DNA of 58,508 nt from Escherichia phage KarinMuster_Bas82: the sequence record PQ850612.1; one strand, 5' to 3'. Made by a program: the position numbers and the translations under genes. Every line of letters begins with the position of its first letter. The stretch's first letter is position 1. Positions 1-9,235 of this stretch are shown here, one piece after another. Under the pieces are notes generated by a model, which did no database searches, was not told the DNA's origin, and worked only from the letters and a program-made list of their open reading frames with translations.

Positions 1-1764
1 ATGAATAAGTTTACTGGAAATATTCATAATTACCCGCGCTGGCGGGATGCTTACGCAAACGACGAACGTATCTGGCGAAAAGGTCAGCCACGACCAGATT
101 ACAAACAGTGTTACATTGACCGCATTAACCTGTTAAATCGTATGCGCACGGATCGGACAATTGTCCCGGTACTGAAAAAGTATTACGAAACAAACCCGGT
201 AGCATTCATTCTCGACTGGGCGTTTACTTATGACCCGCGTAACGTCGGTACTGAATACCCACCCAACATGCCTTTCTGCCTTTTCGAACGTCAAATCGAC
301 ATGGTTCAGTTTGTTTACGAAGCGCTTGAAGACAAAGAAAAAGGGCTTTGGGAAAAATCGCGAGACTATGGTGCGACCTGGGTAGCCTGTGGTTTGTCCG
401 TGTGGGCGTGGCTGTATCGTCCTGGTTCGTCAGTCGGCTGGGGTTCACGTAAAGAACAGCTTGTCGATAAACTGGGCGACCCGGATAGTATTTTTGAAAA
501 GATTCGCCAGATTATCCGCGCATTACCACCGGAATTACGTCCTGTTGGTCTGCGTGAAAAAGATCATCTGGTTTATATGAAATGTATCAACCCAGAAAAC
601 GGTGCAACAATTACTGGTGAAGCTGGCGATAACATCGGTCGTGGTGGTCGTAAATCTGTCTATTTCTTGGATGAAGCGGCACACGTAGATCGTCCTGAAC
701 TGATTGAAGCGTCGTTGTCAGCTAACACCAACGTCCGTATTGATATCAGTTCGGTTAATGGCGTCGGTAACGTTTTTTATCGCAATCGTAAAGCTGGTCT
801 GGAATGGGAACCGGGCAAGAAATTACCTCGTGGTAAATTGCGTGTTATGGTTCTGGACTGGCGCGATCACCCAGCTAAAGATGACGAATGGTATAAGCGA
901 GAAAAACAATCGTTCGCTGAAAAAGGTTTACAGCATATTTTCGCACAGGAAGTTGACCGCGATTATGCCGCTGCTGTTCAGGGTGTACTGATTAAAGCTG
1001 AATGGGTTCGCGCTGCTTTTGATGCTTTCCGTGACACAGAATGGCGCAAAGCTAATGGACTACTTACACCAACAGGTCAACGTATCGCCGGACAGGATGC
1101 CGCAGACGGTGGTGAAGATGCCAGTGCGCTGGTAATTGCTCACGGTGTATTCCTGACACATCTGCAACTTGACCACAGGGGCGCTGAACTGGCTGCACCA
1201 GGAATGTTGACGATGGCTAATATGCTGGGTGTTGATGAATACTGGTACGAAGTTAACGGTGTTGGTACAGGCGTTAAAGTAGCGGCAAACGACCGAAAAG
1301 ATATTTTACGCTTCCGTGTGCGCCCGTGGTTACCGAATGGAAAAGTTGTGGATCCGGGTGGTGATATTATCGGTGGTACGAAACCTGGCGATAAAGACCG
1401 TAAATCAAACAAAGATTATTTCTCAAATTATAAAGCACAGGCATCGTGGGCGTTACGCCTGCGTTGTCAGCGAATTTATAAATGGTATGTGGAAGGTCAA
1501 CCACAGGATCCGGACGAAATCATTCTGATTGATCCATCACTGGAAAATGCACAACGGTTAGAAGCTGAGTTAAGTCAGCCAACGTATACCAGTAACGGTG
1601 CCGGGAAGATTGTGATCGACAAGAAACCAAACGGAAGTAAGTCACCAAACTTTTTCGATGCTGCGGTTATTGCACTATCACCAAAACGCACTGAATTTGT
1701 CGAAGAACCATTTACTGGTGGTGTGAATCCTGTTGGTACTCCTGAATACGGTGACATTTTTTAA
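1..1764 (+). CDS. terL: terminase large subunit
   Basis: 587-aa ORF; deviant Walker A-like KSRDYGATW, Walker B-like VYFLDEAAH, acidic C-terminal nuclease-like half; ORF starts at window base 1 so true 5' end may lie upstream. Confidence 0.75.
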   Translation: MNKFTGNIHNYPRWRDAYANDERIWRKGQPRPDYKQCYIDRINLLNRMRTDRTIVPVLKKYYETNPVAFILDWAFTYDPRNVGTEYPPNMPFCLFERQIDMVQFVYEALEDKEKGLWEKSRDYGATWVACGLSVWAWLYRPGSSVGWGSRKEQLVDKLGDPDSIFEKIRQIIRALPPELRPVGLREKDHLVYMKCINPENGATITGEAGDNIGRGGRKSVYFLDEAAHVDRPELIEASLSANTNVRIDISSVNGVGNVFYRNRKAGLEWEPGKKLPRGKLRVMVLDWRDHPAKDDEWYKREKQSFAEKGLQHIFAQEVDRDYAAAVQGVLIKAEWVRAAFDAFRDTEWRKANGLLTPTGQRIAGQDAADGGEDASALVIAHGVFLTHLQLDHRGAELAAPGMLTMANMLGVDEYWYEVNGVGTGVKVAANDRKDILRFRVRPWLPNGKVVDPGGDIIGGTKPGDKDRKSNKDYFSNYKAQASWALRLRCQRIYKWYVEGQPQDPDEIILIDPSLENAQRLEAELSQPTYTSNGAGKIVIDKKPNGSKSPNFFDAAVIALSPKRTEFVEEPFTGGVNPVGTPEYGDIF

Positions 1765-1772
1765 AACAGTGT

Positions 1773-1803
1773 GGCGGGATTATTCCCGCCCGTTTTCTTT
1801 TTA
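1773..1803 (+). terminator. rho-independent terminator after terL
   Basis: GGCGGGA-tta-TCCCGCC hairpin followed by T-rich run. Confidence 0.6.
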
Positions 1804-1837
1804 ATTCTTGACAAATTACATTATAAATGTTTGTAAA
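1803..1837 (+). promoter_or_regulatory. promoter-like element, degenerate copy of conserved family
   Basis: AATTCTTGACAAATTAC with -35 TTGACA about 1808-1813; -10 not clear. Confidence 0.4.
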
Positions 1838-1926
1838 TTATATGTTAGATTAATGTAACGCGTTTATACTCCTGTAGGTAACCGATCGGTTACAGTTAAT
1901 TAACATTCTCTCACAGGAGTTTCAAC

Positions 1927-2625
1927 ATGTCTGACATGACTTTAGTTCCCACTGGCGGTTTCGGCGGTGAAGCTGGCGCGGCTGCACTTGGTGGTGGTAT
2001 CGGCGGTCTTATCGGTTCCTGGTTCGGTAACGGCTGGGGTGGTGCCGGTGGTTGGGGTGGTCGTGGTATTGGTGCTGCTGAAGGTGTTGTTGTTCAGAAC
2101 TCTCTGGATACTAACGCTATTCTTCAGGCTATTAATGCGGCGTCACTGGCTAACATTCAGGGTCAGAATGGTACTAACCTGACTGTTGAACGCTCAGCAG
2201 CTTCTACCTATAACGGTCTGACCCAACAAAACACACAAAACCTGCTGGCAAACGTTCAAGGTTTTGCAGGTCTGAACACTCAGATTCAGCAGGGTACGAA
2301 CACCGTGACCAATGCGATCTGTGCGTCTGAAACTGCGGCACTGACTCGTTCTTTCCAGGCACAGTTAGCGGCTGAGAAGTGTTGCTGCGAAACCAACCTG
2401 AACATTGAACGTCAGGCGGAAGCAACTCGTGCACTGATCCGTGATCAGTTCGCACAGTCTCAGGCTGTTCTGATTTGTGACCTGAAATCTCAGATTCAAA
2501 CCCGTGACTTCCAGTTGTCTCAATTGTCACAAACGTCTCAGTTGGCGTGCAAAATTAACCAGGTCGATCAGCTTATTAACTTCAAGCTGCCTACTCCGCA
2601 AACTCCACCGACTGGCTGCTGCTAA
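1927..2625 (+). CDS. glycine-rich / Q,N-rich protein ending in Cys-Cys
   Basis: 232-aa ORF with SD AGGAG upstream; N-terminal GGxGG tract, C-terminal CCCE and terminal GCC. Confidence 0.6.
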   Translation: MSDMTLVPTGGFGGEAGAAALGGGIGGLIGSWFGNGWGGAGGWGGRGIGAAEGVVVQNSLDTNAILQAINAASLANIQGQNGTNLTVERSAASTYNGLTQQNTQNLLANVQGFAGLNTQIQQGTNTVTNAICASETAALTRSFQAQLAAEKCCCETNLNIERQAEATRALIRDQFAQSQAVLICDLKSQIQTRDFQLSQLSQTSQLACKINQVDQLINFKLPTPQTPPTGCC

Positions 2626-2675
2626 TTGGTCAACTAAGCGCCTCTGTACGGGGCGCTTTAACAGGAGATAAGAGT

Positions 2676-3035
2676 ATGCATTACAAACCGTATTACGTTA
2701 TCAAAAAAGACGATGATGACGATGAAGAGGAAGATGTAGAAATTCATCACCATCATCATTATCACCACGGGCATCACCCGGACACGATGGGAGTATTTCA
2801 TCATGATAGCTATGCTGGCGAACATGATTCAGTTATGGCCCATGTTAAAGCACGTATGGATAACCCTCCTTCGACTTGGGCGTCGTACCACGATAAGCCC
2901 GGCGGGATGATGTCCATTGTTGAAATGGAATATCGCGAACTGATGGAAGAAAAAACCGAAGGTTCGACGTCTGGTATTAAAAAAGAGCTAACGGATCTGG
3001 CTGCAGCCTGTATCCAAGCACTTAAAAAGATGTAA
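2676..3035 (+). CDS. histidine-rich acidic protein
   Basis: 119-aa ORF, SD AGGAG; DDDDDEEED tract followed by HHHHHYHHGHH. Confidence 0.6.
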   Translation: MHYKPYYVIKKDDDDDEEEDVEIHHHHHYHHGHHPDTMGVFHHDSYAGEHDSVMAHVKARMDNPPSTWASYHDKPGGMMSIVEMEYRELMEEKTEGSTSGIKKELTDLAAACIQALKKM

Positions 3036-3051
3036 CTAACAGGAAACCGAC

Positions 3052-3555
3052 ATGCAGAATATTAACGCAGGTATGGGTGTCACCCAGTTTAACGGTATGA
3101 AACCGCGAAGCACTATTAACATTGGTGGTGTGGAGTGGTCATTACGTCGGGATGCCACTGACTCAACAACAATGTTTCCTCATCCGAAGGTAAGCTGGCT
3201 TAACGCTGGTTGTGAGCCGATGGGTGATGGTCGTTTTCATTACTGTTGGATTTTGGGTGTGATTCCCCCGACACCGGGGACAATCGAACGACCTGTTAAT
3301 GTGATGTATGTTGGTTTCCATCAATTTAAAATTAATATCGCACCTAATTCAATTAGTCAGGCTGATTTAGACAGGATGCATGTTTATGTCAGCGATACTT
3401 CTCACTTTGCTGGTGAATTTGTCAGTAAGTTTTTAGGTACAGAACCTGAACCTGTGGAAACTCGTGAAAATATCAGCCCGTGGCCCCCGATGAATGATCC
3501 TCGTGAGCAACCAAAAGTAGCAAAAAATAAGGTAAACGAAGATGACGAAGAATGA
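3052..3555 (+). CDS. hypothetical protein
   Basis: 167-aa ORF with SD AGGAAA, same operon. Confidence 0.5.
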   Translation: MQNINAGMGVTQFNGMKPRSTINIGGVEWSLRRDATDSTTMFPHPKVSWLNAGCEPMGDGRFHYCWILGVIPPTPGTIERPVNVMYVGFHQFKINIAPNSISQADLDRMHVYVSDTSHFAGEFVSKFLGTEPEPVETRENISPWPPMNDPREQPKVAKNKVNEDDEE

Positions 3556-3796
3556 AGGGGTAGACAAAGTAGTCGAAAGTCTGGGGTTACGCGCACACGT
3601 AATCGTAGACGAAGGTCACAGTCAAGAAGCGATCATGAAGTCGGCATTTAACGATTTTAAAGCATTGGGTTCAATGAGTGGGGTCATGGCAGTGATGACT
3701 ACCGGGAAATTGAGCCAGCAACAGTTAGACCTGGCGCAACGTATCGCTGTGAAAGTAATTGCCGTTTTAGGTCTTAAAGAGTCAGAAAAAGCGTAA
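3542..3796 (+). CDS. hypothetical protein
   Basis: 84-aa ORF overlapping upstream stop. Confidence 0.45.
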   Translation: MTKNEGVDKVVESLGLRAHVIVDEGHSQEAIMKSAFNDFKALGSMSGVMAVMTTGKLSQQQLDLAQRIAVKVIAVLGLKESEKA

Positions 3797-3982
3797 AAAG
3801 GGGGTTATTATGTGTTGTAGAACATCGTGTTGTCTGGGAAGTCCTGCTACGCAATTTGGTCTTCTTCAGTCACAGATTGCACATACTCAGGCCGTTTTCA
3901 GAGGGTTTACCAGTCCGTTCATAGTACCGTTACAGTTTTCCGCGTTCACAGTTAGGCCTTTTGTGTTTTACTGATCGACTTT

Positions 3983-4008
3983 GCCCCAGAACTGTCCGGG
4001 GCTTTTTT
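3983..4008 (+). terminator. rho-independent terminator
   Basis: GCCCC...GGGGC hairpin then TTTTTT at about 4003-4008. Confidence 0.6.
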
Positions 4009-4283
4009 CAACGTCTGAAAGATGAAAGAACAGCGAGGCTAACAGAACCTAAACCGAATATGACGGCGTATGTTAGCTGATATTGAAGTTTCACAAAACC
4101 GTAATAATCGCTTTGTAATTCCACGATGTCAAAAGCAATTGAAAAACTGGTTACCAGCAACATGATTGAAAGAACACGAATCAGAGCAACTGCTAACCCT
4201 ATCACCCCTTGTTCTTTTTTCTCAGTTGTAATAACGACAACAATCATTAACAGAAGCGAAAAAGCAATATACATGTATTCCAT
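4008..4283 (-). CDS. small membrane protein
   Basis: 91-aa ORF, two hydrophobic segments. Confidence 0.5.
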   Translation of the reverse strand: MEYMYIAFSLLLMIVVVITTEKKEQGVIGLAVALIRVLSIMLLVTSFSIAFDIVELQSDYYGFVKLQYQLTYAVIFGLGSVSLAVLSSFRR

Positions 4284-4443
4284 AATTATTAGTCCCGATA
4301 AACTTCAGCACACCCATAAATTTTACCAGGGTTGTAAACCTGTTCAGCTTGTAACGCACCCTGACACTGTTCGAACGTCATAATGCGTTCTGTCACAGGT
4401 TCAATAGCCACACTATGCAGAACGAGCACCAGTACGTAACCAA

Positions 4444-4773
4444 TTAACATTTTCTTAGAGTCTCCCGCCAGCTCAGCCCGTGTAGGTTTACTTTACATAT
4501 AAGAATAAACGGAATATCAGGATCATACCATGAGCTACCGCTAATGTATGGGTCGTGTTCCCACGCGTAAACTTCACCGTCAGCATTAGTAGTAATAACT
4601 GTATAGTTTTCTGGTATAGTTACTGACAATCCAAAATACATTACAGTTTTATAAAGATTCATTTCAACCAGTGTCATTTTACAATCTGGTGCTTCTTCGT
4701 GGATATCCCACGATTTACCACAGTGTGAACACTGATATTCATCGTTACAGCGAATAGCGTTTACATGATTCAT
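4444..4773 (-). CDS. hypothetical Cys-containing protein
   Basis: start re-assigned to MNHVNAIR with SD AGGAGAATAATC; CSHCGKSW motif. Confidence 0.5.
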   Translation of the reverse strand: MNHVNAIRCNDEYQCSHCGKSWDIHEEAPDCKMTLVEMNLYKTVMYFGLSVTIPENYTVITTNADGEVYAWEHDPYISGSSWYDPDIPFILICKVNLHGLSWRETLRKC

Positions 4774-4775
4774 GA

Positions 4776-4934
4776 TTATTCTCCGTTTATCATACCTTTC
4801 GGATAACATTTCGCCCACACGTGGCGTCCGGCTGTACGAATATCTTTGTTTACTTGTTCACATGCAGATTTACTATTAAATTCAGCGCTGCCGGCCATAT
4901 TACCACTAAGAATGAAAATCAGAACATATACCAT
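4776..4934 (-). CDS. small protein with signal-peptide-like N-terminus
   Basis: 52-codon ORF MVYVLIFILSGNMAGSA...; stop overlaps next start. Confidence 0.3.
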   Translation of the reverse strand: MVYVLIFILSGNMAGSAEFNSKSACEQVNKDIRTAGRHVWAKCYPKGMINGE

Positions 4935-4937
4935 AAA

Positions 4938-5084
4938 TTAAAACCCCTTACTTTTAGCAATTTGTTGTGCACGTTTTTTAGTGTGACCAGCCGAAATTAA
5001 ACGTTTAATTTCGGCTTTACGACGTACAAAGTGATCGGCGCGTGAATTTTCAAACCACGACTGACTAATATTTCTTGGATTCAT
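4938..5084 (-). CDS. small basic protein
   Basis: 48-aa ORF with SD GGAGACAG; ATGA overlap with upstream gene. Confidence 0.4.
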   Translation of the reverse strand: MNPRNISQSWFENSRADHFVRRKAEIKRLISAGHTKKRAQQIAKSKGF

Positions 5085-5392
5085 TTAACTGTCTCCGGTA
5101 CAAACCACATTGACGCAAGATATGCACACCCGGCAATTTTATGTTCGTGTTTAGGTTCGAAACTACCCAGAATCACGCTGATGTGTGCGTGGGCCTGTTT
5201 AAAATCCACACCTTTAACAGCAACCGCGTATTCTTTCAGACCATTGAAAAACCATTTGCTGACCCACTGATTCCACGGGTTAGAATTTTCGAAAAATTCT
5301 TTCGGAATACTACCCATCGCCGGGAGAAATTCAGCAATGTTTTTAGGTCCAAAAGCAATATCCAGTTGTGTAATATTTTCATTCGGTTTCAT
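5081..5392 (-). CDS. hypothetical protein
   Basis: 103-aa ORF, first gene downstream of conserved promoter. Confidence 0.55.
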   Translation of the reverse strand: MKPNENITQLDIAFGPKNIAEFLPAMGSIPKEFFENSNPWNQWVSKWFFNGLKEYAVAVKGVDFKQAHAHISVILGSFEPKHEHKIAGCAYLASMWFVPETVK

Positions 5393-5423
5393 AGTTATTA
5401 CCCTTCGTTCATTTGATGACTAA

Positions 5424-5466
5424 AGCATAATCGCACGTTTGCAATCCGTCAAGAATTATTTTAACA
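5424..5466 (-). promoter_or_regulatory. conserved phage promoter (leftward)
   Basis: minus strand reads TTAAAATAATTCTTGACGGATTGC; -35 TTGACG, 17-bp spacer, -10 TATGCT. Confidence 0.6.
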
Positions 5467-5534
5467 CCGTGCAAAAAAACCATCACTGATATAACATACG
5501 TTAAGAACCGTAAACCGTATGGAGCCTGTAGAAC

Positions 5535-6890
5535 ATGGCTGATCAACAATTCGAACAACTAGCCGTTGCCGGGTACAGTCGAACAGGCAACCAGGTAAAC
5601 GACGATTTCCTTCCTAAACTAAACGGTAAACAAGGCCGTCGTATTCTTCGTCAGATGGCTGAGAACGATGAAACGATCGGTGGTGTACTGTTTGCCATGA
5701 GCAGTGTTTATCGTTCTGTGCAATGGCTTTTCGACCCATCTGACAAAGATGATCCAGAAGCTATCCGTTATTCAGAATGGTTACAGGATGCTATTGAAAA
5801 TAAAATGGGTGATCCGCGTGGTGCACTCCCGGATGATACCTGGTCCGCGTTCGTTCAGACATGGACAGACGTTGATGTATTCGGCTGGGGTTGGTATGAC
5901 ATCTGGGTCAAAGACCTTGATGACGGCACCGTGGGTATTGCCCGTCTGGTTCCTGTAGCACCTGAAACACTTGCTGGATGGGATATAGAAGAACCGACAG
6001 GTTATGTTCGTGGTATTTATCAACGTTCACCTAACCAGGGTACAACGACGTTAATCACTCGTGACCGTTCGCTTCATTTGATTTCAAGTCCGAATAAAGG
6101 TAACCCGGAAGGTTTATCACTGCTGCGCACAGCTTATCGTCCGTGGTACTACAAAAAAGTGAATATGGAAATCGAATCCATACTTGCCGAACGTGGTACA
6201 GGGTTCCCGGTAATTACTGTTAACGCAGATATTAAGAAAGCGGCTAATGACCCCAACGTTCCTGAACAACAACGTCAGGCAGCACAGGCGATGATTGATA
6301 ACTATGAAAACATCGTCGCTAATATCAAACGCAATGAACAATCAGGACTGGTGATTTATTCTAAACCGTATATCACGGGTTACGATAACGAAACAGGTGT
6401 TACCACGTATGGTGGTGAACAACAGGTGAAACTGGAATTCGTTACACCTAACCAGACCAGTTCCGTGGATATTGATCGGACGATTAAACGTCTGGATACC
6501 AGTATTGCTCGCGCGTTACTGGCAGATTTTATGTTTTTCGGAACGGGTGGTAATACCGGGAATAATGCTAACCTGGGTAGTCGTACTGAATTATGGATCC
6601 GCGCAATGCAATCACGTATTGATAGCATTGTAGAATGTGTTAACCGTCAGTTGATACCACAGTTATGGTCGTTAAACGCATTTCCTGATGAATACCGCCC
6701 GTCGATTCGCGCCGGGTCGATCAGTAAAGACAGTATCGAAACGTTGACCACTGCACTTGCACGACTTGCACAAGCTGGCGCACCTGTATTCCCGGATCCA
6801 GACCTTCAGGAATACGTGTATAAAGAGGCGGGTCTACCTATTACGGGGATTGATAAAGCCGGGGACGGATTACCGTCTATTGACGACTGA
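5535..6890 (+). CDS. portal protein (putative)
   Basis: 451-aa ORF, size and position in morphogenesis module; no diagnostic motif. Confidence 0.5.
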   Translation: MADQQFEQLAVAGYSRTGNQVNDDFLPKLNGKQGRRILRQMAENDETIGGVLFAMSSVYRSVQWLFDPSDKDDPEAIRYSEWLQDAIENKMGDPRGALPDDTWSAFVQTWTDVDVFGWGWYDIWVKDLDDGTVGIARLVPVAPETLAGWDIEEPTGYVRGIYQRSPNQGTTTLITRDRSLHLISSPNKGNPEGLSLLRTAYRPWYYKKVNMEIESILAERGTGFPVITVNADIKKAANDPNVPEQQRQAAQAMIDNYENIVANIKRNEQSGLVIYSKPYITGYDNETGVTTYGGEQQVKLEFVTPNQTSSVDIDRTIKRLDTSIARALLADFMFFGTGGNTGNNANLGSRTELWIRAMQSRIDSIVECVNRQLIPQLWSLNAFPDEYRPSIRAGSISKDSIETLTTALARLAQAGAPVFPDPDLQEYVYKEAGLPITGIDKAGDGLPSIDD

Positions 6891-6898
6891 ATGAAAAA

Positions 6899-6925
6899 GG
6901 GACCAGAAACGGTCCCTTAATTTTT
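6899..6925. terminator. bidirectional terminator between convergent genes
   Basis: GGGACC-agaaac-GGTCCC hairpin with T-rich flank. Confidence 0.6.
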
Positions 6926-7256
6926 ACTTAGTTTCAGGCTGCACGATTGACAGTAATTTACTCGCTTCATCAACCGCAGTCTGAATACGAGTCTGTAACG
7001 GATAACTGTTGTTGATCGCACGTTCCAGCGTTTTATCAAGCAATTGTAGTTTAACCTCATCATCGCCAGTGAACGCGTACATATCAGCAACGACTTCCTT
7101 AAACTGTGATGCTTGCTCAACAATAGTCGTGGTTACAATGTATTTCCAGACTTTGTTAAGTAGTTTAAATTTCACTTCGTTGTCAGCAACTGCATCAACC
7201 AGAATTTCAGCAGCAGTCTTGTCATATTTAACAAGCTCAAGAATTTCAAAACGCAT
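6924..7256 (-). CDS. hypothetical protein
   Basis: 110-aa ORF. Confidence 0.45.
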   Translation of the reverse strand: MRFEILELVKYDKTAAEILVDAVADNEVKFKLLNKVWKYIVTTTIVEQASQFKEVVADMYAFTGDDEVKLQLLDKTLERAINNSYPLQTRIQTAVDEASKLLSIVQPETK

Positions 7257-7271
7257 TTAAGTTTTCTCCTG

Positions 7272-7616
7272 TCAATTAACGTACTTCGCGATCAGTTTAT
7301 CACAGTCTTCGCGACAGGTAGCATACTTAAACAGGTCACTGGCTGCTTCTGCCCGGTAGTCAGTATCAATGGTGTAATGTTCATTAACATAGTTATAGGC
7401 TGCAAGGTAGTTACTGAACATCCCCGTGGTTACCACTTTCGGTTGTTCCCTTACGACCTTACCGTTAAACAGATATGCGATTAGCAAAATCAGACCACCG
7501 ATCACAGGACTTGTGAGAAATGCGATAAAGAACCATACACCAGGGTTACGACCTGTTTGTTTGGCAACACCCGCGACAACCAGACAGAAAAGAATCCATA
7601 AAATAATGAATAACAT
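7272..7616 (-). CDS. membrane protein
   Basis: 114-aa ORF, two N-terminal hydrophobic helices; downstream of conserved promoter. Confidence 0.5.
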   Translation of the reverse strand: MLFIILWILFCLVVAGVAKQTGRNPGVWFFIAFLTSPVIGGLILLIAYLFNGKVVREQPKVVTTGMFSNYLAAYNYVNEHYTIDTDYRAEAASDLFKYATCREDCDKLIAKYVN

Positions 7617-7646
7617 GATTATGTCCTCCTTTGTTTTGATGTTTGT

Positions 7647-7690
7647 AGGTTACACGTCCTTGTGTAATCCATCAAGAATTATTTTAAATT
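7647..7690 (-). promoter_or_regulatory. conserved phage promoter (leftward)
   Basis: TTAAAATAATTCTTGATGGATTAC; -10 TAACCT. Confidence 0.55.
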
Positions 7691-7936
7691 ATCATAGACG
7701 GGCGGTAAACCCATTGCGGCCTGTACAGACCGTTTTTCGTATTCCTCCCGAAGTTTCTGAAGCTGTTCAATACCGATGTCACAACCACGCATTATATCAG
7801 CGCACAGATCGTTGTAGGTCGCTTCAGATTGCTTGCTGTGTGGGTAATCAACACAGGACGGATCTGCAATAATGACTTTCGGCAGATACGCGACAGTATC
7901 GCCCATTGCGTTTTTAAATATCGTCATAGTTAGCAC
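7679..7936 (-). CDS. hypothetical protein
   Basis: 85-aa ORF. Confidence 0.4.
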   Translation of the reverse strand: MLTMTIFKNAMGDTVAYLPKVIIADPSCVDYPHSKQSEATYNDLCADIMRGCDIGIEQLQKLREEYEKRSVQAAMGLPPVYDNLK

Positions 7937-8409
7937 CCATGATTAAGTTCCTGACCTGGTTGAACACGAGTACCACAACATTTACAAACATAGCGCCACT
8001 CAAAACCGGGTTGTTCGTTGTAATTACGCCACCCTGCGTTATATAAAGCTGACGCAAGTTTAATATAAGATTCAGAACCTTTAGAATCACCATAATGACT
8101 AATTAAAACATAAACTAGGTTATCAATATCCTTTTCACGTTCTTTCGGAATAGGTCTGAAGTTTTCCGCGTTACCTACAATAAACGATTGTGTACCGTCA
8201 TCAGGCTTTAACCATGTATCATCACCATGATGACCTAATACCGTCACCTTTACCCAATCGTGATCAACGCTTGCTAACCACTCGCATACTGTACCGACAG
8301 GTGGTAAACCTTCACCATCCCATTGTTGTTTTTCATTCACATAGTCAGGACAAATACCATGTTTTTGATCACTGTTATCACGCATGTGTTTTTCACAAAA
8401 ACTTTTCAT
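7930..8409 (-). CDS. hypothetical protein
   Basis: 159-aa ORF. Confidence 0.5.
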   Translation of the reverse strand: MKSFCEKHMRDNSDQKHGICPDYVNEKQQWDGEGLPPVGTVCEWLASVDHDWVKVTVLGHHGDDTWLKPDDGTQSFIVGNAENFRPIPKEREKDIDNLVYVLISHYGDSKGSESYIKLASALYNAGWRNYNEQPGFEWRYVCKCCGTRVQPGQELNHGC

Positions 8410-8735
8410 AAATACGACCCCACAATTGCTGCACAGTTGACGATCGCTAAACGCGTTGCTTTTTCACGGTCTTCTCCGTGGCTAACTGGTTGCTTATAAT
8501 TAACGCCGGTGTCAGGGTTATTAACCGTCACTTCGTTGTCACGAACATCCAGATCCATGTACATGTTAACCATCAGACTGAAAGCATCCTCATTACGTGT
8601 AAGAGGGTTCCACAGGCGACCATTACCTATATCAATACCTTCGTTTATGTAACGTTCGTCGTACGCGACGTAATATTTACCCTGGATTTCAGCAGCCTTT
8701 GCTGCGTTAACTAATAAATCACGATTGTTCATCAC
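8406..8735 (-). CDS. hypothetical protein
   Basis: 109-aa ORF, overlapping stop/start. Confidence 0.5.
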   Translation of the reverse strand: MMNNRDLLVNAAKAAEIQGKYYVAYDERYINEGIDIGNGRLWNPLTRNEDAFSLMVNMYMDLDVRDNEVTVNNPDTGVNYKQPVSHGEDREKATRLAIVNCAAIVGSYL

Positions 8736-9235
8736 ACCCGTCCTGTTGATCCAAACCCGCCATTACGCTGACTATCAACATCTGGTAATTCTTCCACTTC
8801 AACCAGATTAACAGGTTCGACACGTTCAACCATGAGCTGACAAACGCGTTCACCGTCTGCGATAGTCTGTAATTTCTGCCCGTGGTTAGTCAGCGTAACG
8901 TAGTATTCTTCTTTATAATCACGATCACCGATACCCACACAGTTGATCAGTGACAAACCGTGTTTAAGACTCATGCCGGAACGTGGATAAAATTTAATGC
9001 AATATCCGTTATCAACTGACATTTTCAGACCAGTGGGGATCATAGCGCGGTCGCCGGGCCATAATGCGATTGTTCCTGCAACAACCGGACGTTCTACTTT
9101 AGCGCCTGATTCTGTGAATATGGTTACCGATTCTTCCCATAGGCAAGCACGAACGTCTAATCCGGCGCTGTCTGGTGTTGCACGTGTCGGAAGTTCAGCG
9201 TGGGGTGTTAGTTTTTTGATATACAGGTTAGTCAT
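8732..9235 (-). CDS. dut: dUTP diphosphatase
   Basis: 167 aa; dUTPase motifs AGLDVRA, PRSGMSLKHGL, GIGDRDYKEE, RNGGFGSTG. Confidence 0.9.
   Translation of the reverse strand: MTNLYIKKLTPHAELPTRATPDSAGLDVRACLWEESVTIFTESGAKVERPVVAGTIALWPGDRAMIPTGLKMSVDNGYCIKFYPRSGMSLKHGLSLINCVGIGDRDYKEEYYVTLTNHGQKLQTIADGERVCQLMVERVEPVNLVEVEELPDVDSQRNGGFGSTGRV

What the first reader, a model, noticed from the sequence alone, without database searches (positions are those of the whole stretch)
1803..5392. Accessory island between terL and portal with glycine-rich and natural poly-His proteins
Terminase and portal genes are normally adjacent; here about 3.7 kb is inserted, holding a terminator-promoter pair, a rightward operon (232-aa protein with GGxGG N-terminus, Q/N-rich middle and CC C-terminus; 119-aa protein with DDDDDEEED followed by HHHHHYHHGHH; two further ORFs), a terminator, and a convergent leftward operon of six small proteins (membrane, secreted-like, Cys-pair). 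The Gly-rich/Cys-terminal protein loosely recalls glycine-rich bacteriocin or translocation domains, and the His tract suggests metal binding; none has an obvious phage-housekeeping role.
Basis: partly seen in the sequence, partly recalled or inferred. Interest (0 to 1): 0.6.

Follow-up and report, generated by a model that had tools for sequence, protein, structure and literature searches.

The report
Mobile accessory gene cassette in phage
The DNA between the terminase and portal genes of this 9NA-like phage carries a self-contained, dispensable five-gene cassette of unknown function that also occurs in at least seven unrelated groups of virulent enterobacterial phages, and its histidine-rich protein looks like a small MazG-type nucleotide pyrophosphatase.

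Summary
terL (1-1764) and portal (5535-6890) are separated by about 3.8 kb. This holds a rightward operon, a terminator, and six convergent small genes.

- **A fifth rightward gene.** It lies at 3810-3974 and encodes 54 aa.
- **A conserved unit.** The rightward genes g1-g5 recur in the same order in 9NA-like, Queuovirinae, Drexlerviridae, Segzyvirus, eiAU-like and Yersinia phages and in metagenomic phages. The cassette always ends at a convergent junction and often follows tail-fibre genes.
- **Repeated loss.** It is missing or broken in 9NA, PDP46, Seurat, SHIN8 and Henu8, and is a pseudogene in T5-like phages. Where intact, it is under strong purifying selection (dN/dS 0.03-0.14).
- **A variable His run.** The poly-His tract is an N-terminal extension of a conserved roughly 70-aa core carrying the MazG-type ExxE...ExxD motif. 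That core gives a weak profile match to PDB 2p06.

The 232-aa protein has a conserved glycine zipper, then a Q/N-rich helical region with an invariant CCC. The 167-aa protein has no known fold. No bacteriocin, spanin, defence or Pfam family matches.

Function is inferred only. I favour an envelope-directed accessory role at about 0.4. Anti-defence and virion-fibre roles remain open.

The parts
1..1764 (+). Large terminase gene (context, left border of the island)
   Evidence: 587-aa ORF. It is 96% identical to the annotated TerL of 9NA and Sasha relatives, with a weak Pfam Terminase_6N match.
1773..1800 (+). Intrinsic terminator after terL (GGCGGGA-TTAT-TCCCGCC followed by a T-run)
   Evidence: Found by the scan, read directly in the sequence, and annotated at the same site in AVIO78A.
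1808..1871 (+). Promoter-like region: TTGACA at 1808-1813 and a conserved -10-like TATACT at 1866-1871, 6 nt before the hairpin
   Evidence: Sequence read. TAT(A/G/T)CT keeps the same position before the hairpin in 9NA-like, Seuratvirus, Nonagvirus, Hanrivervirus, Tlsvirus, eiAU and T5-like loci. The sigma-70 scan did not call it, so its function is inferred.
1878..1893 (+). Conserved 5'-UTR stem-loop GTAACC-GATC-GGTTAC, 33 nt upstream of the g1 start codon
   Evidence: Present in 10 loci from 6 lineages, with 96.7% of cells paired. All one-sided changes give G.U on the + strand, and one pair shows compensatory C-G to A-U changes. In L014 and L015 the same arms flank an inserted hairpin, and the 3' arm overlaps the ribosome-binding site.
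1927..2625 (+). g1, 232 aa: invariant N-terminus MSDMTL.P, a glycine zipper (G22-G26-G30-G34-G38), a Q/N/T/A-rich helical region (62-220) with invariant CCCETN (152-157), and a Pro-rich tail ending in GCC
   Evidence: ORF. It matches phrog_9288 (unknown function) at 3e-123, has 215 homologous protein clusters and homologues in 178 phage records. The AlphaFold2 model has residues 1-61 at low confidence and a helix over 62-220. dN/dS is 0.14.
2636..2658 (+). GC-rich stem-loop between g1 and g2, a possible attenuator
   Evidence: Read directly: AAGCGCCT...GGGCGCTT followed by only a short T-run. TransTermHP annotated a terminator at the equivalent site in AVIO78A. The scan did not report it.
2676..3035 (+). 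g2, 119 aa: acidic and poly-His N-terminal extension (residues 11-35) plus a conserved MazG/AF_0060-like core (about 48-119) with E85xxE88...E104xxD107
   Evidence: Alignments. An 85-sequence family profile matches PDB 2p06 at E=0.0015 without any His-tag contribution. Pfam MazG or PRA-PH match a few homologues at 3e-4 to 2e-3. There are 168 relatives at 50% clustering. The JLBYU09 homologue is annotated 'putative pyrophosphatase'. dN/dS is 0.14.
3052..3555 (+). g3, 167 aa: beta-sheet plus C-terminal helix domain with many invariant H, C, D and W residues and a disordered acidic tail; no known fold
3542..3796 (+). g4, 84 aa, overlapping g3 by 14 nt; invariant TGKL and RI.VK motifs
   Evidence: Conserved in every cassette lineage, including the reduced versions in L014 and L015. 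It is the only cassette gene left in Henu8. No PDB or Pfam match. dN/dS is 0.03.
   Evidence: Preceded by AAAGGGGG. It equals 9NA gp15 and Solent_024 at 91% and is homologous to a 67-aa CAjan ORF at 45%. dN/dS is 0.06.
3983..4008 (.). Terminator between the convergent blocks (GCCCC...GGGGC followed by TTTTTT)
   Evidence: Read directly. Terminators are annotated at the equivalent site in AVIO78A, Solent and Sasha.
4008..4283 (-). L1, 91 aa, three hydrophobic segments (integral membrane protein); inherited together with the cassette in three lineages
   Evidence: Kyte-Doolittle 19-residue maximum is 2.56. Solent annotates three transmembrane domains. It sits convergent right after the cassette in 9NA-like, Seuratvirus and eiAU phages. 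dN/dS is 0.05-0.10.
4289..4450 (-). L2, 53 aa, signal-peptide-like N-terminus and one Cys pair (C29, C47)
   Evidence: ORF, hydropathy. Solent annotates a 'putative periplasmic protein'. dN/dS is 0.13.
4444..4773 (-). L3, 109 aa from the ATG (124 aa if the GTG at 4818 is used), with an N-terminal Cys4 zinc-ribbon-like motif
   Evidence: Matches phrog_1972 at 1e-28. Weak Pfam Zn_ribbon_6 match. Homologues are 109-111 aa in PJ16 and AVIO78A.
4776..4934 (-). L4, 52 aa, hydrophobic N-terminus and one Cys pair (C25, C43); existence unverified
   Evidence: ORF. No homologue was found in the relatives examined. Other genes occupy this slot in AVIO78A, PJ16 and Solent.
4938..5084 (-). L5, 48 aa, very basic (pI 11.7)
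   Evidence: It is 85-94% identical in AVIO78A and PJ16.
5081..5392 (-). L6, 103 aa, first gene of the leftward block
   Evidence: Matches phrog_36680 at 2e-49. It is 96% identical in AVIO78A and 83% in 9NA gp20. dN/dS is 0.07.
5393..5534 (.). Divergent control region between L6 and portal, with a leftward promoter-like site (TTGACG-17-TATGCT at 5452-5424)
   Evidence: Scan. This is a consensus match only.
5535..6890 (+). Portal gene (context, right border)
   Evidence: Pfam Portal_Mu at 1.4e-23. Annotated as portal in all relatives.

Best explanation
**Shown.** The interval is a hot spot for accessory DNA in 9NA-like phages, and it holds two units.

Unit 1 (1927-3974) is a self-contained, horizontally mobile five-gene operon, g1-g5. 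It brings its own upstream elements: the preceding terminator, a conserved -10-like TATACT, and a conserved 5'-UTR stem-loop. A stem-loop follows g1, and a terminator closes the operon. The operon is dispensable for lytic growth, but selection maintains it in nature.

Unit 2 (4008-5392) is a variable leftward block of small genes, mostly membrane or secreted-type. Its last gene, L1, a three-segment membrane protein, travels with the cassette in three lineages.

**Inferred mechanism (about 0.4).** The island is directed at the envelope of the infected cell rather than at packaging or virion structure.
- g1 is probably the most strongly expressed product. It has a strong ribosome-binding site, a leader hairpin, and a possible attenuator after it.
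- g1 would use its conserved glycine zipper to self-associate in or on a membrane, and would project a long helical, cysteine-crosslinkable domain.
- g3, g4 and g5 would be its partners or handlers.
- g2, a small MazG-type nucleoside-triphosphate (or nucleotide-sugar) pyrophosphatase with a His/Asp/Glu-rich tail, would supply the one enzymatic step.

Together with L1 and the small secreted Cys-pair peptides, the outcome would be exclusion of superinfecting phage, masking of receptor or O-antigen, or tuning of lysis. Genes beside tail-fibre and receptor-binding genes (cor, llp) play these roles in T1- and T5-like phages.
For: **Mobility and unity.** The same genes, in the same order and with similar sizes, occur in CAjan, SHIN8 and SE1 (Queuovirinae), damhaus and FSL SP-126 (Drexlerviridae), Segz_1, eiAU, Yersinia vB_YenM_22, and metagenomic phage L014. 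L015 carries a reduced g1-g2-g4 form. In every locus examined the cassette ends at a convergent junction.

**Conserved leader elements.**

**Dispensability.**
- 9NA gp12 is the first 45 aa of g1 fused out of frame, and gp13 is g3 from residue 57.
- PDP46 lacks the whole cassette.
- Seurat, SHIN8 and Henu8 carry deletions.
- The T5-like copy has in-frame stops.
- TLS and vB_EcoS-95 have no cassette at the same junction.

**Selection.** dN/dS is 0.03-0.14.

**Envelope lean.**
- Gly at positions i, i+4 (22, 26, 30, 34, 38) is conserved at 0.83 or higher.
- g1 has 8 Cys and a Pro-rich tail.
- L1 has three hydrophobic segments and is co-inherited with the cassette.
- L2 and L4 are signal-like peptides with a Cys pair.
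- The cassette is usually placed directly after lateral tail-fibre genes.

**Not a lysis or structural core function.** Relatives carry a complete holin, endolysin, i-spanin and o-spanin cassette elsewhere.

**g2 as MazG-like.**
Against: - No gene in the cassette has a signal peptide.
- The g1 glycine-rich segment reaches only 1.14 on a 19-residue Kyte-Doolittle window, below the usual 1.6 transmembrane cut-off.
- g1 matches no Pfam glycine-zipper family.
- The g1 helical region shows no heptad periodicity, and its model has pTM 0.22.
- A MazG-type enzyme and g3 are most simply cytoplasmic.
- L1 is absent from the Drexlerviridae, Yersinia and Segzyvirus versions (53 records against 139 for g3).
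- The cysteines are not conserved in even numbers, and L015 lacks the CCC.
- No experiment or proteome bears on any of these proteins.
- The MazG assignment rests on weak scores. The window protein itself has no Pfam hit at E<0.1.
Confidence: 0.4

Rival explanations
1. Cytoplasmic host-takeover or anti-defence operon. g2 would hydrolyse a nucleotide such as an alarmone, a signalling nucleotide, or a dNTP or NTP pool. g1 and g3-g5 would bind or sequester host factors or metal ions through the CCC, CC..CC and His-rich motifs. The frequent placement next to tail-fibre genes would reflect only where DNA is easily inserted, at operon ends.
For: - The cassette is an accessory with its own promoter, varies in presence between close relatives, and is found only in virulent phages.
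- The only recognisable domain is a nucleotide pyrophosphatase type.
- There are no export signals.
- In Yersinia phages and in L014 the cassette sits among early or replication genes.
- Cys and His clusters suit metal binding in a reducing cytoplasm.
Against: - There is no match to any PADLOC model or known anti-defence family.
- The BASEL study reports that the Nonanavirus isolate KarinMuster is markedly sensitive to restriction-modification systems and to Old. It also reports that the extra genome content brings no visible robustness (PMC11990801).
- A 232-aa glycine-zipper helical protein is not typical of known inhibitors.
- The conserved membrane neighbour L1 and the secreted-type neighbours point to the envelope instead.
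Confidence: 0.25
2. Accessory virion appendage module. g1 would be a fibrous, disulfide-crosslinked oligomer, such as a head fibre, whisker or side fibre, added to particles. g2-g5 would help its assembly. It would be dispensable in the laboratory, as phi29 head fibres or T4 Hoc and fibritin are.
For: - The model gives a long helical region.
- The low-charge Q/N/T/A composition resembles that of fibrous or exported phage proteins.
- There is a weak PHROG hit to a 'virion structural protein' family at 4.6e-4.
- The cassette runs in the same direction as late genes and lies directly after tail-fibre or head genes in most lineages.
- The strong ribosome-binding site and the stem-loop after g1 suit an abundant product.
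- Deletions in Seurat and SHIN8 run from the lateral tail-fibre gene into the cassette.
Against: - There is no heptad periodicity.
- The model's global confidence is low.
- A MazG-like enzyme has no obvious role in fibre assembly.
- In 9NA-like, Yersinia and L014 phages the cassette is far from tail genes.
- Per the BASEL study, KarinMuster carries a single tailspike receptor-binding protein (PMC11990801).
- No proteome available to me detects any cassette protein. The one virion proteome I read comes from a phage without the cassette.
Confidence: 0.15
3. One reading: g1 is a glycine-rich bacteriocin-like or colicin-translocation-like toxin released at lysis. The convergent small membrane protein L1 would be its immunity protein, arranged as in pore-forming colicin operons.
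For: - The glycine-rich hydrophobic N-terminus resembles microcin V and class II microcins in composition, and colicin T-domains in being Gly-rich (the comparison is from my own knowledge).
- The convergent three-segment membrane gene mimics the placement of colicin immunity genes.
- The glycine-rich segment gives weak matches (E about 1) to the influenza HA2 fusion peptide.
Against: - No sequence or profile match exists to any bacteriocin or colicin family.
- There is no exporter, lysis or receptor-binding module.
- The family is absent from 72,556 plasmids and 5,426 E. coli genomes.
- The N-terminal 11 residues before GG are shorter than a double-glycine leader and lack its consensus.
- L1 is missing from most cassette lineages.
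- In 9NA, L1 and g3-g5 persist although g1 is destroyed.
Confidence: 0.05
4. There is no joint function. The genes are unrelated small genes of unknown function that travel together only because they were transferred as one DNA block.
For: - No component gives a confident functional assignment.
- g3 is missing from L015.
- L1 and g5 are missing from several lineages.
Against: - Order, spacing, the 14-nt g3/g4 overlap and the leader elements are kept in lineages whose proteins have diverged to 31-45% identity.
- Deletions tend to remove several genes at once rather than single genes.
- All the genes are under purifying selection.
Confidence: 0.1

Closest known systems
Phage morons and accessory-gene hot spots at operon ends (for example lambda lom and bor, T1/phi80 cor, T5 llp next to receptor-binding genes)
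   Same: - The cassette is a self-contained transcription unit bracketed by terminators.
- It is inserted at the end of a late operon.
- It is present or absent between close relatives.
- It occurs in unrelated genomes.
- It is dispensable in the laboratory.
   Different: - It has five co-conserved genes rather than one or two.
- It occurs in strictly virulent phages.
- It has no lipoprotein or outer-membrane-protein signature.
- It has no demonstrated exclusion phenotype.
MazG-like all-alpha NTP pyrophosphohydrolases, including the structural-genomics protein AF_0060 (PDB 2p06), for g2
   Same: - The size of the conserved core is similar.
- The predicted helical core carries ExxE, then 15 residues, then ExxD.
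- There are profile matches to 2p06 and weak Pfam MazG and PRA-PH hits in homologues.
- Small MazG-like genes are common in phages.
   Different: - The scores are weak, and the window protein itself is below every Pfam cut-off.
- The second motif's Asp is replaced by His in many distant relatives.
- g2 has a His/Asp/Glu-rich N-terminal extension.
- Substrate and activity are unknown.
Class II microcins (colicin V) and colicin N-terminal translocation domains, for g1
   Same: g1 has a glycine-rich N-terminal region followed by a long helical region. A small membrane protein is encoded convergently downstream.
   Different: - There is no homology.
- There is no leader consensus or exporter, and no cytotoxic or receptor domain.
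- The family is never found on plasmids or chromosomes.
- g1 is far larger than a microcin and far smaller than a colicin.
i-spanins (lambda Rz type)
   Same: Both have a hydrophobic N-terminal segment, a long helical region, cysteines that could form intermolecular disulfides, and a Pro-rich element.
   Different: - The N-terminal segment is not hydrophobic enough for a transmembrane domain.
- g1 is not in the lysis cassette.
- Relatives already encode an i-spanin and o-spanin pair.
- g1 is dispensable.
Histidine-rich metal-handling proteins (Hpn, HypB, UreE and SlyD tails)
   Same: g2 has a natural run of His next to acidic residues. GCC, CCC and CC..CC motifs occur in neighbouring proteins.
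   Different: - The resemblance is compositional only.
- The His run varies in length and is absent from many homologues.
- No metal-enzyme partner is encoded nearby.

Membership tests
MazG-like all-alpha NTP pyrophosphohydrolase superfamily (g2) | Match to Pfam MazG or PRA-PH at the curated threshold | tested here: not met
   The window protein has no Pfam hit at E<0.1. Only 2-3 of 21 and 2 of 85 homologues match, at 3e-4 to 2e-3 and below the gathering scores.
MazG-like all-alpha NTP pyrophosphohydrolase superfamily (g2) | Metal-binding motif E-x-x-E, then 12-28 residues, then E-x-x-D | tested here: met
   E85-Y-R-E88, 15 residues, then E104-L-T-D107. E85, E88 and E104 are invariant and D107 nearly so in the close family. 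In distant relatives the Asp is often His.
MazG-like all-alpha NTP pyrophosphohydrolase superfamily (g2) | Profile similarity to a solved member of the superfamily | tested here: inconclusive
   PDB 2p06 (AF_0060) scores E=0.0015 with the 85-sequence profile over the core only and E=0.097 with a 21-sequence trimmed profile. That 2p06 belongs to this superfamily is from my memory of SCOP and was not checked here.
MazG-like all-alpha NTP pyrophosphohydrolase superfamily (g2) | Four-helix-bundle fold and NTP hydrolysis | not tested
Glycine-rich bacteriocins (class II microcins, colicins) (g1) | Homology to a bacteriocin or colicin family | tested here: not met
   Pfam, NCBIfam, PADLOC and PDB profile searches found nothing.
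Glycine-rich bacteriocins (class II microcins, colicins) (g1) | Double-glycine leader with a dedicated exporter, or a colicin lysis gene; carriage on plasmids or chromosomes | tested here: not met
   No exporter or lysis gene lies in or near the island. There is no homologue in 72,556 plasmids. The cassette DNA is absent from 5,426 E. coli genomes.
Glycine-rich bacteriocins (class II microcins, colicins) (g1) | Cognate membrane immunity protein | tested here: inconclusive
   L1 is convergent and membrane-embedded, but it accompanies the cassette in only three lineages and persists in 9NA without g1.
Spanins (g1) | N-terminal transmembrane domain or lipobox, and location in the lysis cassette | tested here: not met
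   The Kyte-Doolittle maximum is 1.14. There is no lipobox. Relatives have a separate holin, endolysin, i-spanin and o-spanin cluster.
Pfam glycine-zipper membrane domains (Gly-zipper_Omp, YMGG, Rick_17kDa_Anti) (g1 N-terminus) | Profile match | tested here: not met
   Seven N-terminal segments gave no hit even at E<=10. The GxxxG periodicity itself is conserved.
Moron-like mobile accessory cassette | Presence or absence polymorphism among close relatives, and occurrence at other positions in unrelated genomes | tested here: met
Moron-like mobile accessory cassette | Own transcription signals (promoter upstream, terminators on both sides) | tested here: inconclusive
   The terminators are clear. 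Promoter-like hexamers are conserved, but no transcript data exist and the consensus scan called no + strand promoter.
Virion structural proteins | Detection in purified particles and conservation across the family | not testable with these tools
   No proteome of a cassette-positive phage was available. vB_EcoS-95, which has a proteome, lacks the cassette. Conservation across the family is not met.
Known anti-phage defence or candidate systems (PADLOC) | Profile match to any component | tested here: not met
   Only chance-level hits, at E of 0.007 or higher, to unrelated large proteins.

The most novel reading that the evidence does not exclude
The g1-g5 cassette, with L1 where present, is a previously unrecognised functional system that virulent enterobacterial phages exchange among themselves. 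Its parts are a glycine-zipper helical protein, a His-tailed MazG-type pyrophosphatase, an orphan-fold protein and two small partners. Together they would remodel or seal the envelope of the infected cell, or disarm a host response, by a mechanism with no characterised counterpart. A conserved leader RNA hairpin would control its expression.
Probability: 0.3. Interest if true: 0.65.

Novelty: new variant of a known kind. Interest (0 to 1): 0.45.

Why it matters
The cassette is carried by well over a hundred sequenced coliphages and by Salmonella, Shigella, Yersinia and Edwardsiella phages. These include BASEL collection members and phages proposed for therapy, yet every gene in it is annotated 'hypothetical'.

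Two facts together say it gives a real advantage outside the laboratory: selection keeps it intact across deep divergence, and it is lost repeatedly in laboratory-type lineages. Natural deletion variants such as 9NA, PDP46 and Henu8 provide ready-made controls.

Finding its role would assign function to four protein families with no annotation, one of them with an apparently new fold. It could also reveal a new way for lytic phages to manage the cell envelope, superinfection or host nucleotide pools. The natural poly-His tail on a small enzyme is a minor curiosity by comparison.

Tried and rejected
- **Spanin or lysis role for g1:** rejected. The hydropathy is too low, and relatives have a complete lysis cassette elsewhere.
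- **Continuous coiled coil for g1:** not supported. There is no 3.5-residue periodicity above shuffles (511 of 1000 shuffles as high), so the single 159-residue helix of the monomer model should not be taken literally.
- **Influenza HA2 fusion-peptide similarity:** E is about 1, a composition effect only.
- **First 2p06 hit for g2 (E=0.004):** partly an artefact of the His tag in the crystallised construct. I repeated the search with trimmed and broader profiles.
- **g4:** nothing in PDB or Pfam.
- **PADLOC and NCBIfam:** nothing.
- **Paralogues within the window:** none.
- **Literature:**
  - The key 9NA genomics paper (Zeng et al. 2019, PMC6819911) is not held.
  - The BASEL, 9g, P400, TLS and AVIO78A papers do not discuss these genes.
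  - The vB_EcoS-95 virion proteome turned out to come from a phage without the cassette.
- **PJ16 label 'lateral tail fiber chaperone' for g1, and BASEL label 'putative sugar-binding protein' for a g1 fragment**: I found no evidence for either.
- **Whether the window is BASEL phage KarinMuster** (58.5 kb Nonanavirus): plausible from its length but not verified.

Full report
**What the window is.** The first 7 kb match Nonanavirus and Sashavirus siphophages at about 96% identity (Sashavirus 536P12, E. coli phages AVIO78A and PJ16). They match Salmonella phages Sasha, Sergei, Solent, SP069 and 9NA at 86-91%. The window length fits the 58.5-kb BASEL Nonanavirus isolate KarinMuster (PMC11990801), but I could not verify that identity.

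**Checking the observation.**
- terL ends at 1764 and is followed by a clear intrinsic terminator at 1773-1790 plus a T-run.
- The portal gene (5535-6890) matches Pfam Portal_Mu at 1e-23.
- The rightward genes are g1 (1927-2625, 232 aa), g2 (2676-3035, 119 aa), g3 (3052-3555, 167 aa) and g4 (3542-3796, 84 aa, overlapping g3 by 14 nt).
It has its own ribosome-binding site and is conserved in 9NA (gp15), Solent and CAjan.
- A GC stem plus T6 at 3983-4008 separates these genes from six leftward ORFs, L1-L6 (4008-5392).
- The His run is written with mixed CAT/CAC codons.
- Pairwise dN/dS against Solent, 9NA and CAjan is 0.03-0.14 for g1-g5 and 0.05-0.23 for L1, L2, L3, L5 and L6. terL and portal give 0.03-0.04. 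These are therefore real genes under selection.
- L4 has no homologue in the relatives examined and remains unverified.

**The island is a family-wide hot spot, and it is variable.**
- Every relative has DNA between terL and portal, but the content differs.
- AVIO78A, PJ16 and Solent carry other genes in the leftward block.
- Klebsiella phage Carvaje has a different 234-aa gene directly after terL.
- PDP46, at 96% identity, goes from terL almost straight to L1, so it lacks the whole rightward cassette.
- 9NA has an internal deletion of about 1 kb. Its gp12 is the first 45 residues of g1 fused out of frame, and its gp13 is g3 from residue 57.
- In AVIO78A the other morphogenetic genes are also interrupted by leftward blocks, and a complete lysis cassette (holin, endolysin, i-spanin, o-spanin) lies elsewhere.
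- The terL-portal split is therefore real, but it is one instance of a general genome style.

**The main finding: the rightward genes form a mobile cassette.**
- tblastn with g1 finds 178 phage records, and g3 finds 139.
- g1 to g4, in the same order and with similar sizes, occur in several unrelated lineages:
  - Seuratvirus and Nonagvirus, directly after the lateral tail-fibre gene;
  - Hanrivervirus and Tlsvirus, between the lateral tail-fibre gene and ssb;
  - Segzyvirus, after head genes;
  - Edwardsiella phage eiAU, after tail genes;
  - Yersinia vB_YenM phages, among leftward early-type genes;
  - a 65-kb metagenomic phage with rIIB (L014).
- g5 was confirmed only in the 9NA-like phages and in Seuratvirus (CAjan, SHIN8).
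- A 43-kb contig (L015) has a reduced g1-g2-g4 version just upstream of its terminase genes, again with a poly-His g2.
- Pairwise protein identities fall to 31-45% while order is kept, and the g3/g4 overlap is kept in most lineages.
- In every case the cassette ends at a convergent junction.
- T1-like phages TLS and vB_EcoS-95 have the same tail-fibre/ssb junction without the cassette.
- Losses recur:
  - Seurat and SHIN8 have deletions running from the tail-fibre gene into the cassette.
  - Henu8 and a group of near-identical records keep only g4.
  - T5-like Epseptimavirus phages keep a g1 remnant with in-frame stops after their L-shaped tail-fibre gene.
- The family is absent from 72,556 plasmids (g1 protein search) and from 5,426 complete E. 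coli genomes (cassette DNA search).
- The three-segment membrane protein L1 sits convergent right after the cassette in 9NA-like, Seuratvirus and eiAU phages, but not elsewhere (53 records).

**Shared control elements.**
- Upstream of g1, lineages that share no other DNA similarity keep the same layout: terminator, a -10-like TAT(A/G/T)CT, 6-8 nt, the inverted repeat GTAAC(N4-6)GTTAC, about 31-39 nt, then ATGTCTGAYATGAC.
- Across ten loci, 96.7% of cells in the six-pair stem are paired.
- The three one-sided changes all give G.U on the + strand, and the loop-closing pair switches C-G to A-U or G.U.
- The only breaks are in 9NA, where g1 is dead, and at the loop-closing pair of eiAU (15 of 500 shuffles as high).
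- This favours an RNA hairpin at or near the 5' end of the g1 message over a DNA operator.
- In L014 and L015 the same arms enclose an extra hairpin, and the 3' arm covers the ribosome-binding site.
- A GC-rich stem-loop follows g1 (2636-2658). It is annotated as a terminator in AVIO78A but was not called by the scan here.

**The proteins.**

*g1*
- It has no Pfam, NCBIfam, PADLOC or PDB match. It belongs to phrog_9288, of unknown function.
- Its N-terminus MSDMTL.P is invariant even at 40% overall identity.
- Gly at positions 22, 26, 30, 34 and 38 is conserved at 0.83 or higher, which makes a GxxxG zipper.
- QGQN.TN, VQGFAGLNT and CCCETN are invariant or nearly so.
- The C-terminal CC is lineage-specific, and L015 lacks the CCC.
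- AlphaFold2 gives low confidence for residues 1-61 and one long helix for 62-220 (pLDDT 62-89, pTM 0.22).
- There is no heptad periodicity, so a helical bundle broken at the conserved glycines is as likely as a coiled coil.
- Hydropathy peaks at 1.14, below the transmembrane threshold.
- No Pfam glycine-zipper family matches.

*g2*
- It is conserved only over its last 70 residues or so (PxTW...IVEMEYRELM...KELTDLAAAC).
- E85xxE88, 15 residues, then E104xxD107 fit the MazG motif.
- An exhaustive profile search found 168 relatives, mostly 80-130 aa.
- A profile of 85 of them matches PDB 2p06 (AF_0060) at E=0.0015 over the core alone. The earlier, stronger-looking hit was inflated by the construct's His tag.
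- A few homologues touch Pfam MazG or PRA-PH at 3e-4 to 2e-3.
- Independent annotators called the JLBYU09 homologue a 'putative pyrophosphatase'.
- I rate g2 as MazG-like at about 0.65.
- The acidic plus poly-His extension recurs in distant versions (L014, L015 and several metagenomic clusters). In Seuratvirus and Hanrivervirus it is replaced by a different, still His/Asp/Glu-rich, N-terminus.

*g3*
- The model is confident: a beta-sheet plus a C-terminal helix, with core pLDDT above 85.
- It has many invariant His, Cys, Asp and Trp residues.

*g4 and g5* match nothing.

*Leftward genes*
- L1 is a membrane protein.
- L2 and L4 have hydrophobic N-termini and one Cys pair each, spaced 18 residues apart.
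- L3 has a Cys4 motif, and L5 is very basic.

**Interpretation.**
- Shown: a mobile, dispensable, selected five-gene operon with conserved leader elements, sitting in a variable hot spot.
- Inferred: its function. I favour an envelope-directed accessory role (about 0.4), such as exclusion, receptor or O-antigen masking, or lysis tuning. The reasons are:
  - the conserved glycine zipper;
  - the cysteine and proline features of g1;
  - the co-inherited membrane protein L1;
  - the secreted-type neighbours;
  - the habitual position beside tail-fibre genes, where cor and llp-type genes sit.
- Against this reading:
  - there are no export signals;
  - the zipper is only weakly hydrophobic;
  - the one recognisable domain is a cytoplasmic-type enzyme.
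- A cytoplasmic takeover or anti-defence role is the main rival (0.25). BASEL phenotyping found no special robustness of the Nonanavirus isolate.
- A dispensable virion appendage (0.15) cannot be excluded without a proteome.
- The bacteriocin idea (0.05) fails every membership test I could run.

**Novelty.**
- Accessory islands and morons are a known kind, and small MazG-like phage genes are known.
- In the searchable literature I found no recognition of this particular multi-gene unit, of its spread across seven or more lineages, of its conserved leader hairpin, or of the orphan g3 fold.
- It is a solid, testable lead rather than a surprise.

Noticed in passing
window 1878-1893 (also L004 4782, L005 4760, L009 3768, L007 3740, L017 1035, L018 2287): A conserved stem-loop, GTAACC-N4-GGTTAC, lies in the g1 leader, 6-8 nt after a conserved TATACT-like hexamer. 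Sequence changes in the stem are G.U-compatible or compensatory. In L014 and L015 the same arms enclose an extra hairpin, and the 3' arm overlaps the ribosome-binding site.
   Followed up: partly
It is conserved in 9NA gp15, Solent_024 and a 67-aa CAjan ORF, with dN/dS 0.06.
   Followed up: yes
L003 (phage 9NA) 2390-2955: The reference phage 9NA carries a deletion of about 1 kb inside the cassette. Its gp12 is a g1 N-terminal fragment fused out of frame, and its gp13 is a 5'-truncated g3. Its leader hairpin also has a mismatch.
   Followed up: yes
L007 (Salmonella phage rokbiter) 3791-4510: T5-like Epseptimavirus phages keep a decayed g1 copy, with in-frame stops, right after the L-shaped tail-fibre gene and without g2-g4. 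This suggests past exchange of tail-fibre ends with small siphoviruses.
   Followed up: partly
window 4289-4450 and 4776-4934: L2 and L4 share an architecture: a hydrophobic N-terminus followed by a short mature part with two Cys exactly 18 residues apart. They may be paralogous small periplasmic peptides. L4 has no homologue in the relatives checked.
   Followed up: no
window 6924-9235 and beyond; L013: The portal gene is followed by another leftward block that includes a dUTPase (8732-9235). Further leftward blocks interrupt the head genes. The morphogenetic module of this family is therefore split several times, not only between terL and portal.
   Followed up: partly
L014 4625-4819 and L015 4848-5057: In the two metagenomic versions, a small four-Cys zinc-ribbon protein (64 and 69 aa, MRxxRxCPxC...C..CGL) immediately precedes the cassette. 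It has no counterpart upstream of g1 in the window.
   Followed up: no
phage database records MG0656xx ('Campylobacter phage A16a, A118, A121...'): About 19 records labelled as Campylobacter jejuni phages are 94-97% identical to E. coli Hanrivervirus DNA over the cassette. They are probably mislabelled or contaminant T1-like coliphages.
   Followed up: no
L021 (BASEL phage JakobBernoulli) 301-1005: The g1 homologue is annotated as two ORFs (77 aa and 125 aa, the latter 'putative sugar-binding protein') although the DNA is 96% identical to damhaus. This is either a disrupting mutation or an annotation split. PJ16 labels g1 'lateral tail fiber chaperone'. I found no support for either label.
   Followed up: no
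window 4051-5400: The leftward block is markedly AT-richer (GC 0.36-0.42) than g1 (0.50-0.54) and than terL and portal (about 0.44-0.51). This is consistent with a separate origin for the two halves of the island.
   Followed up: no
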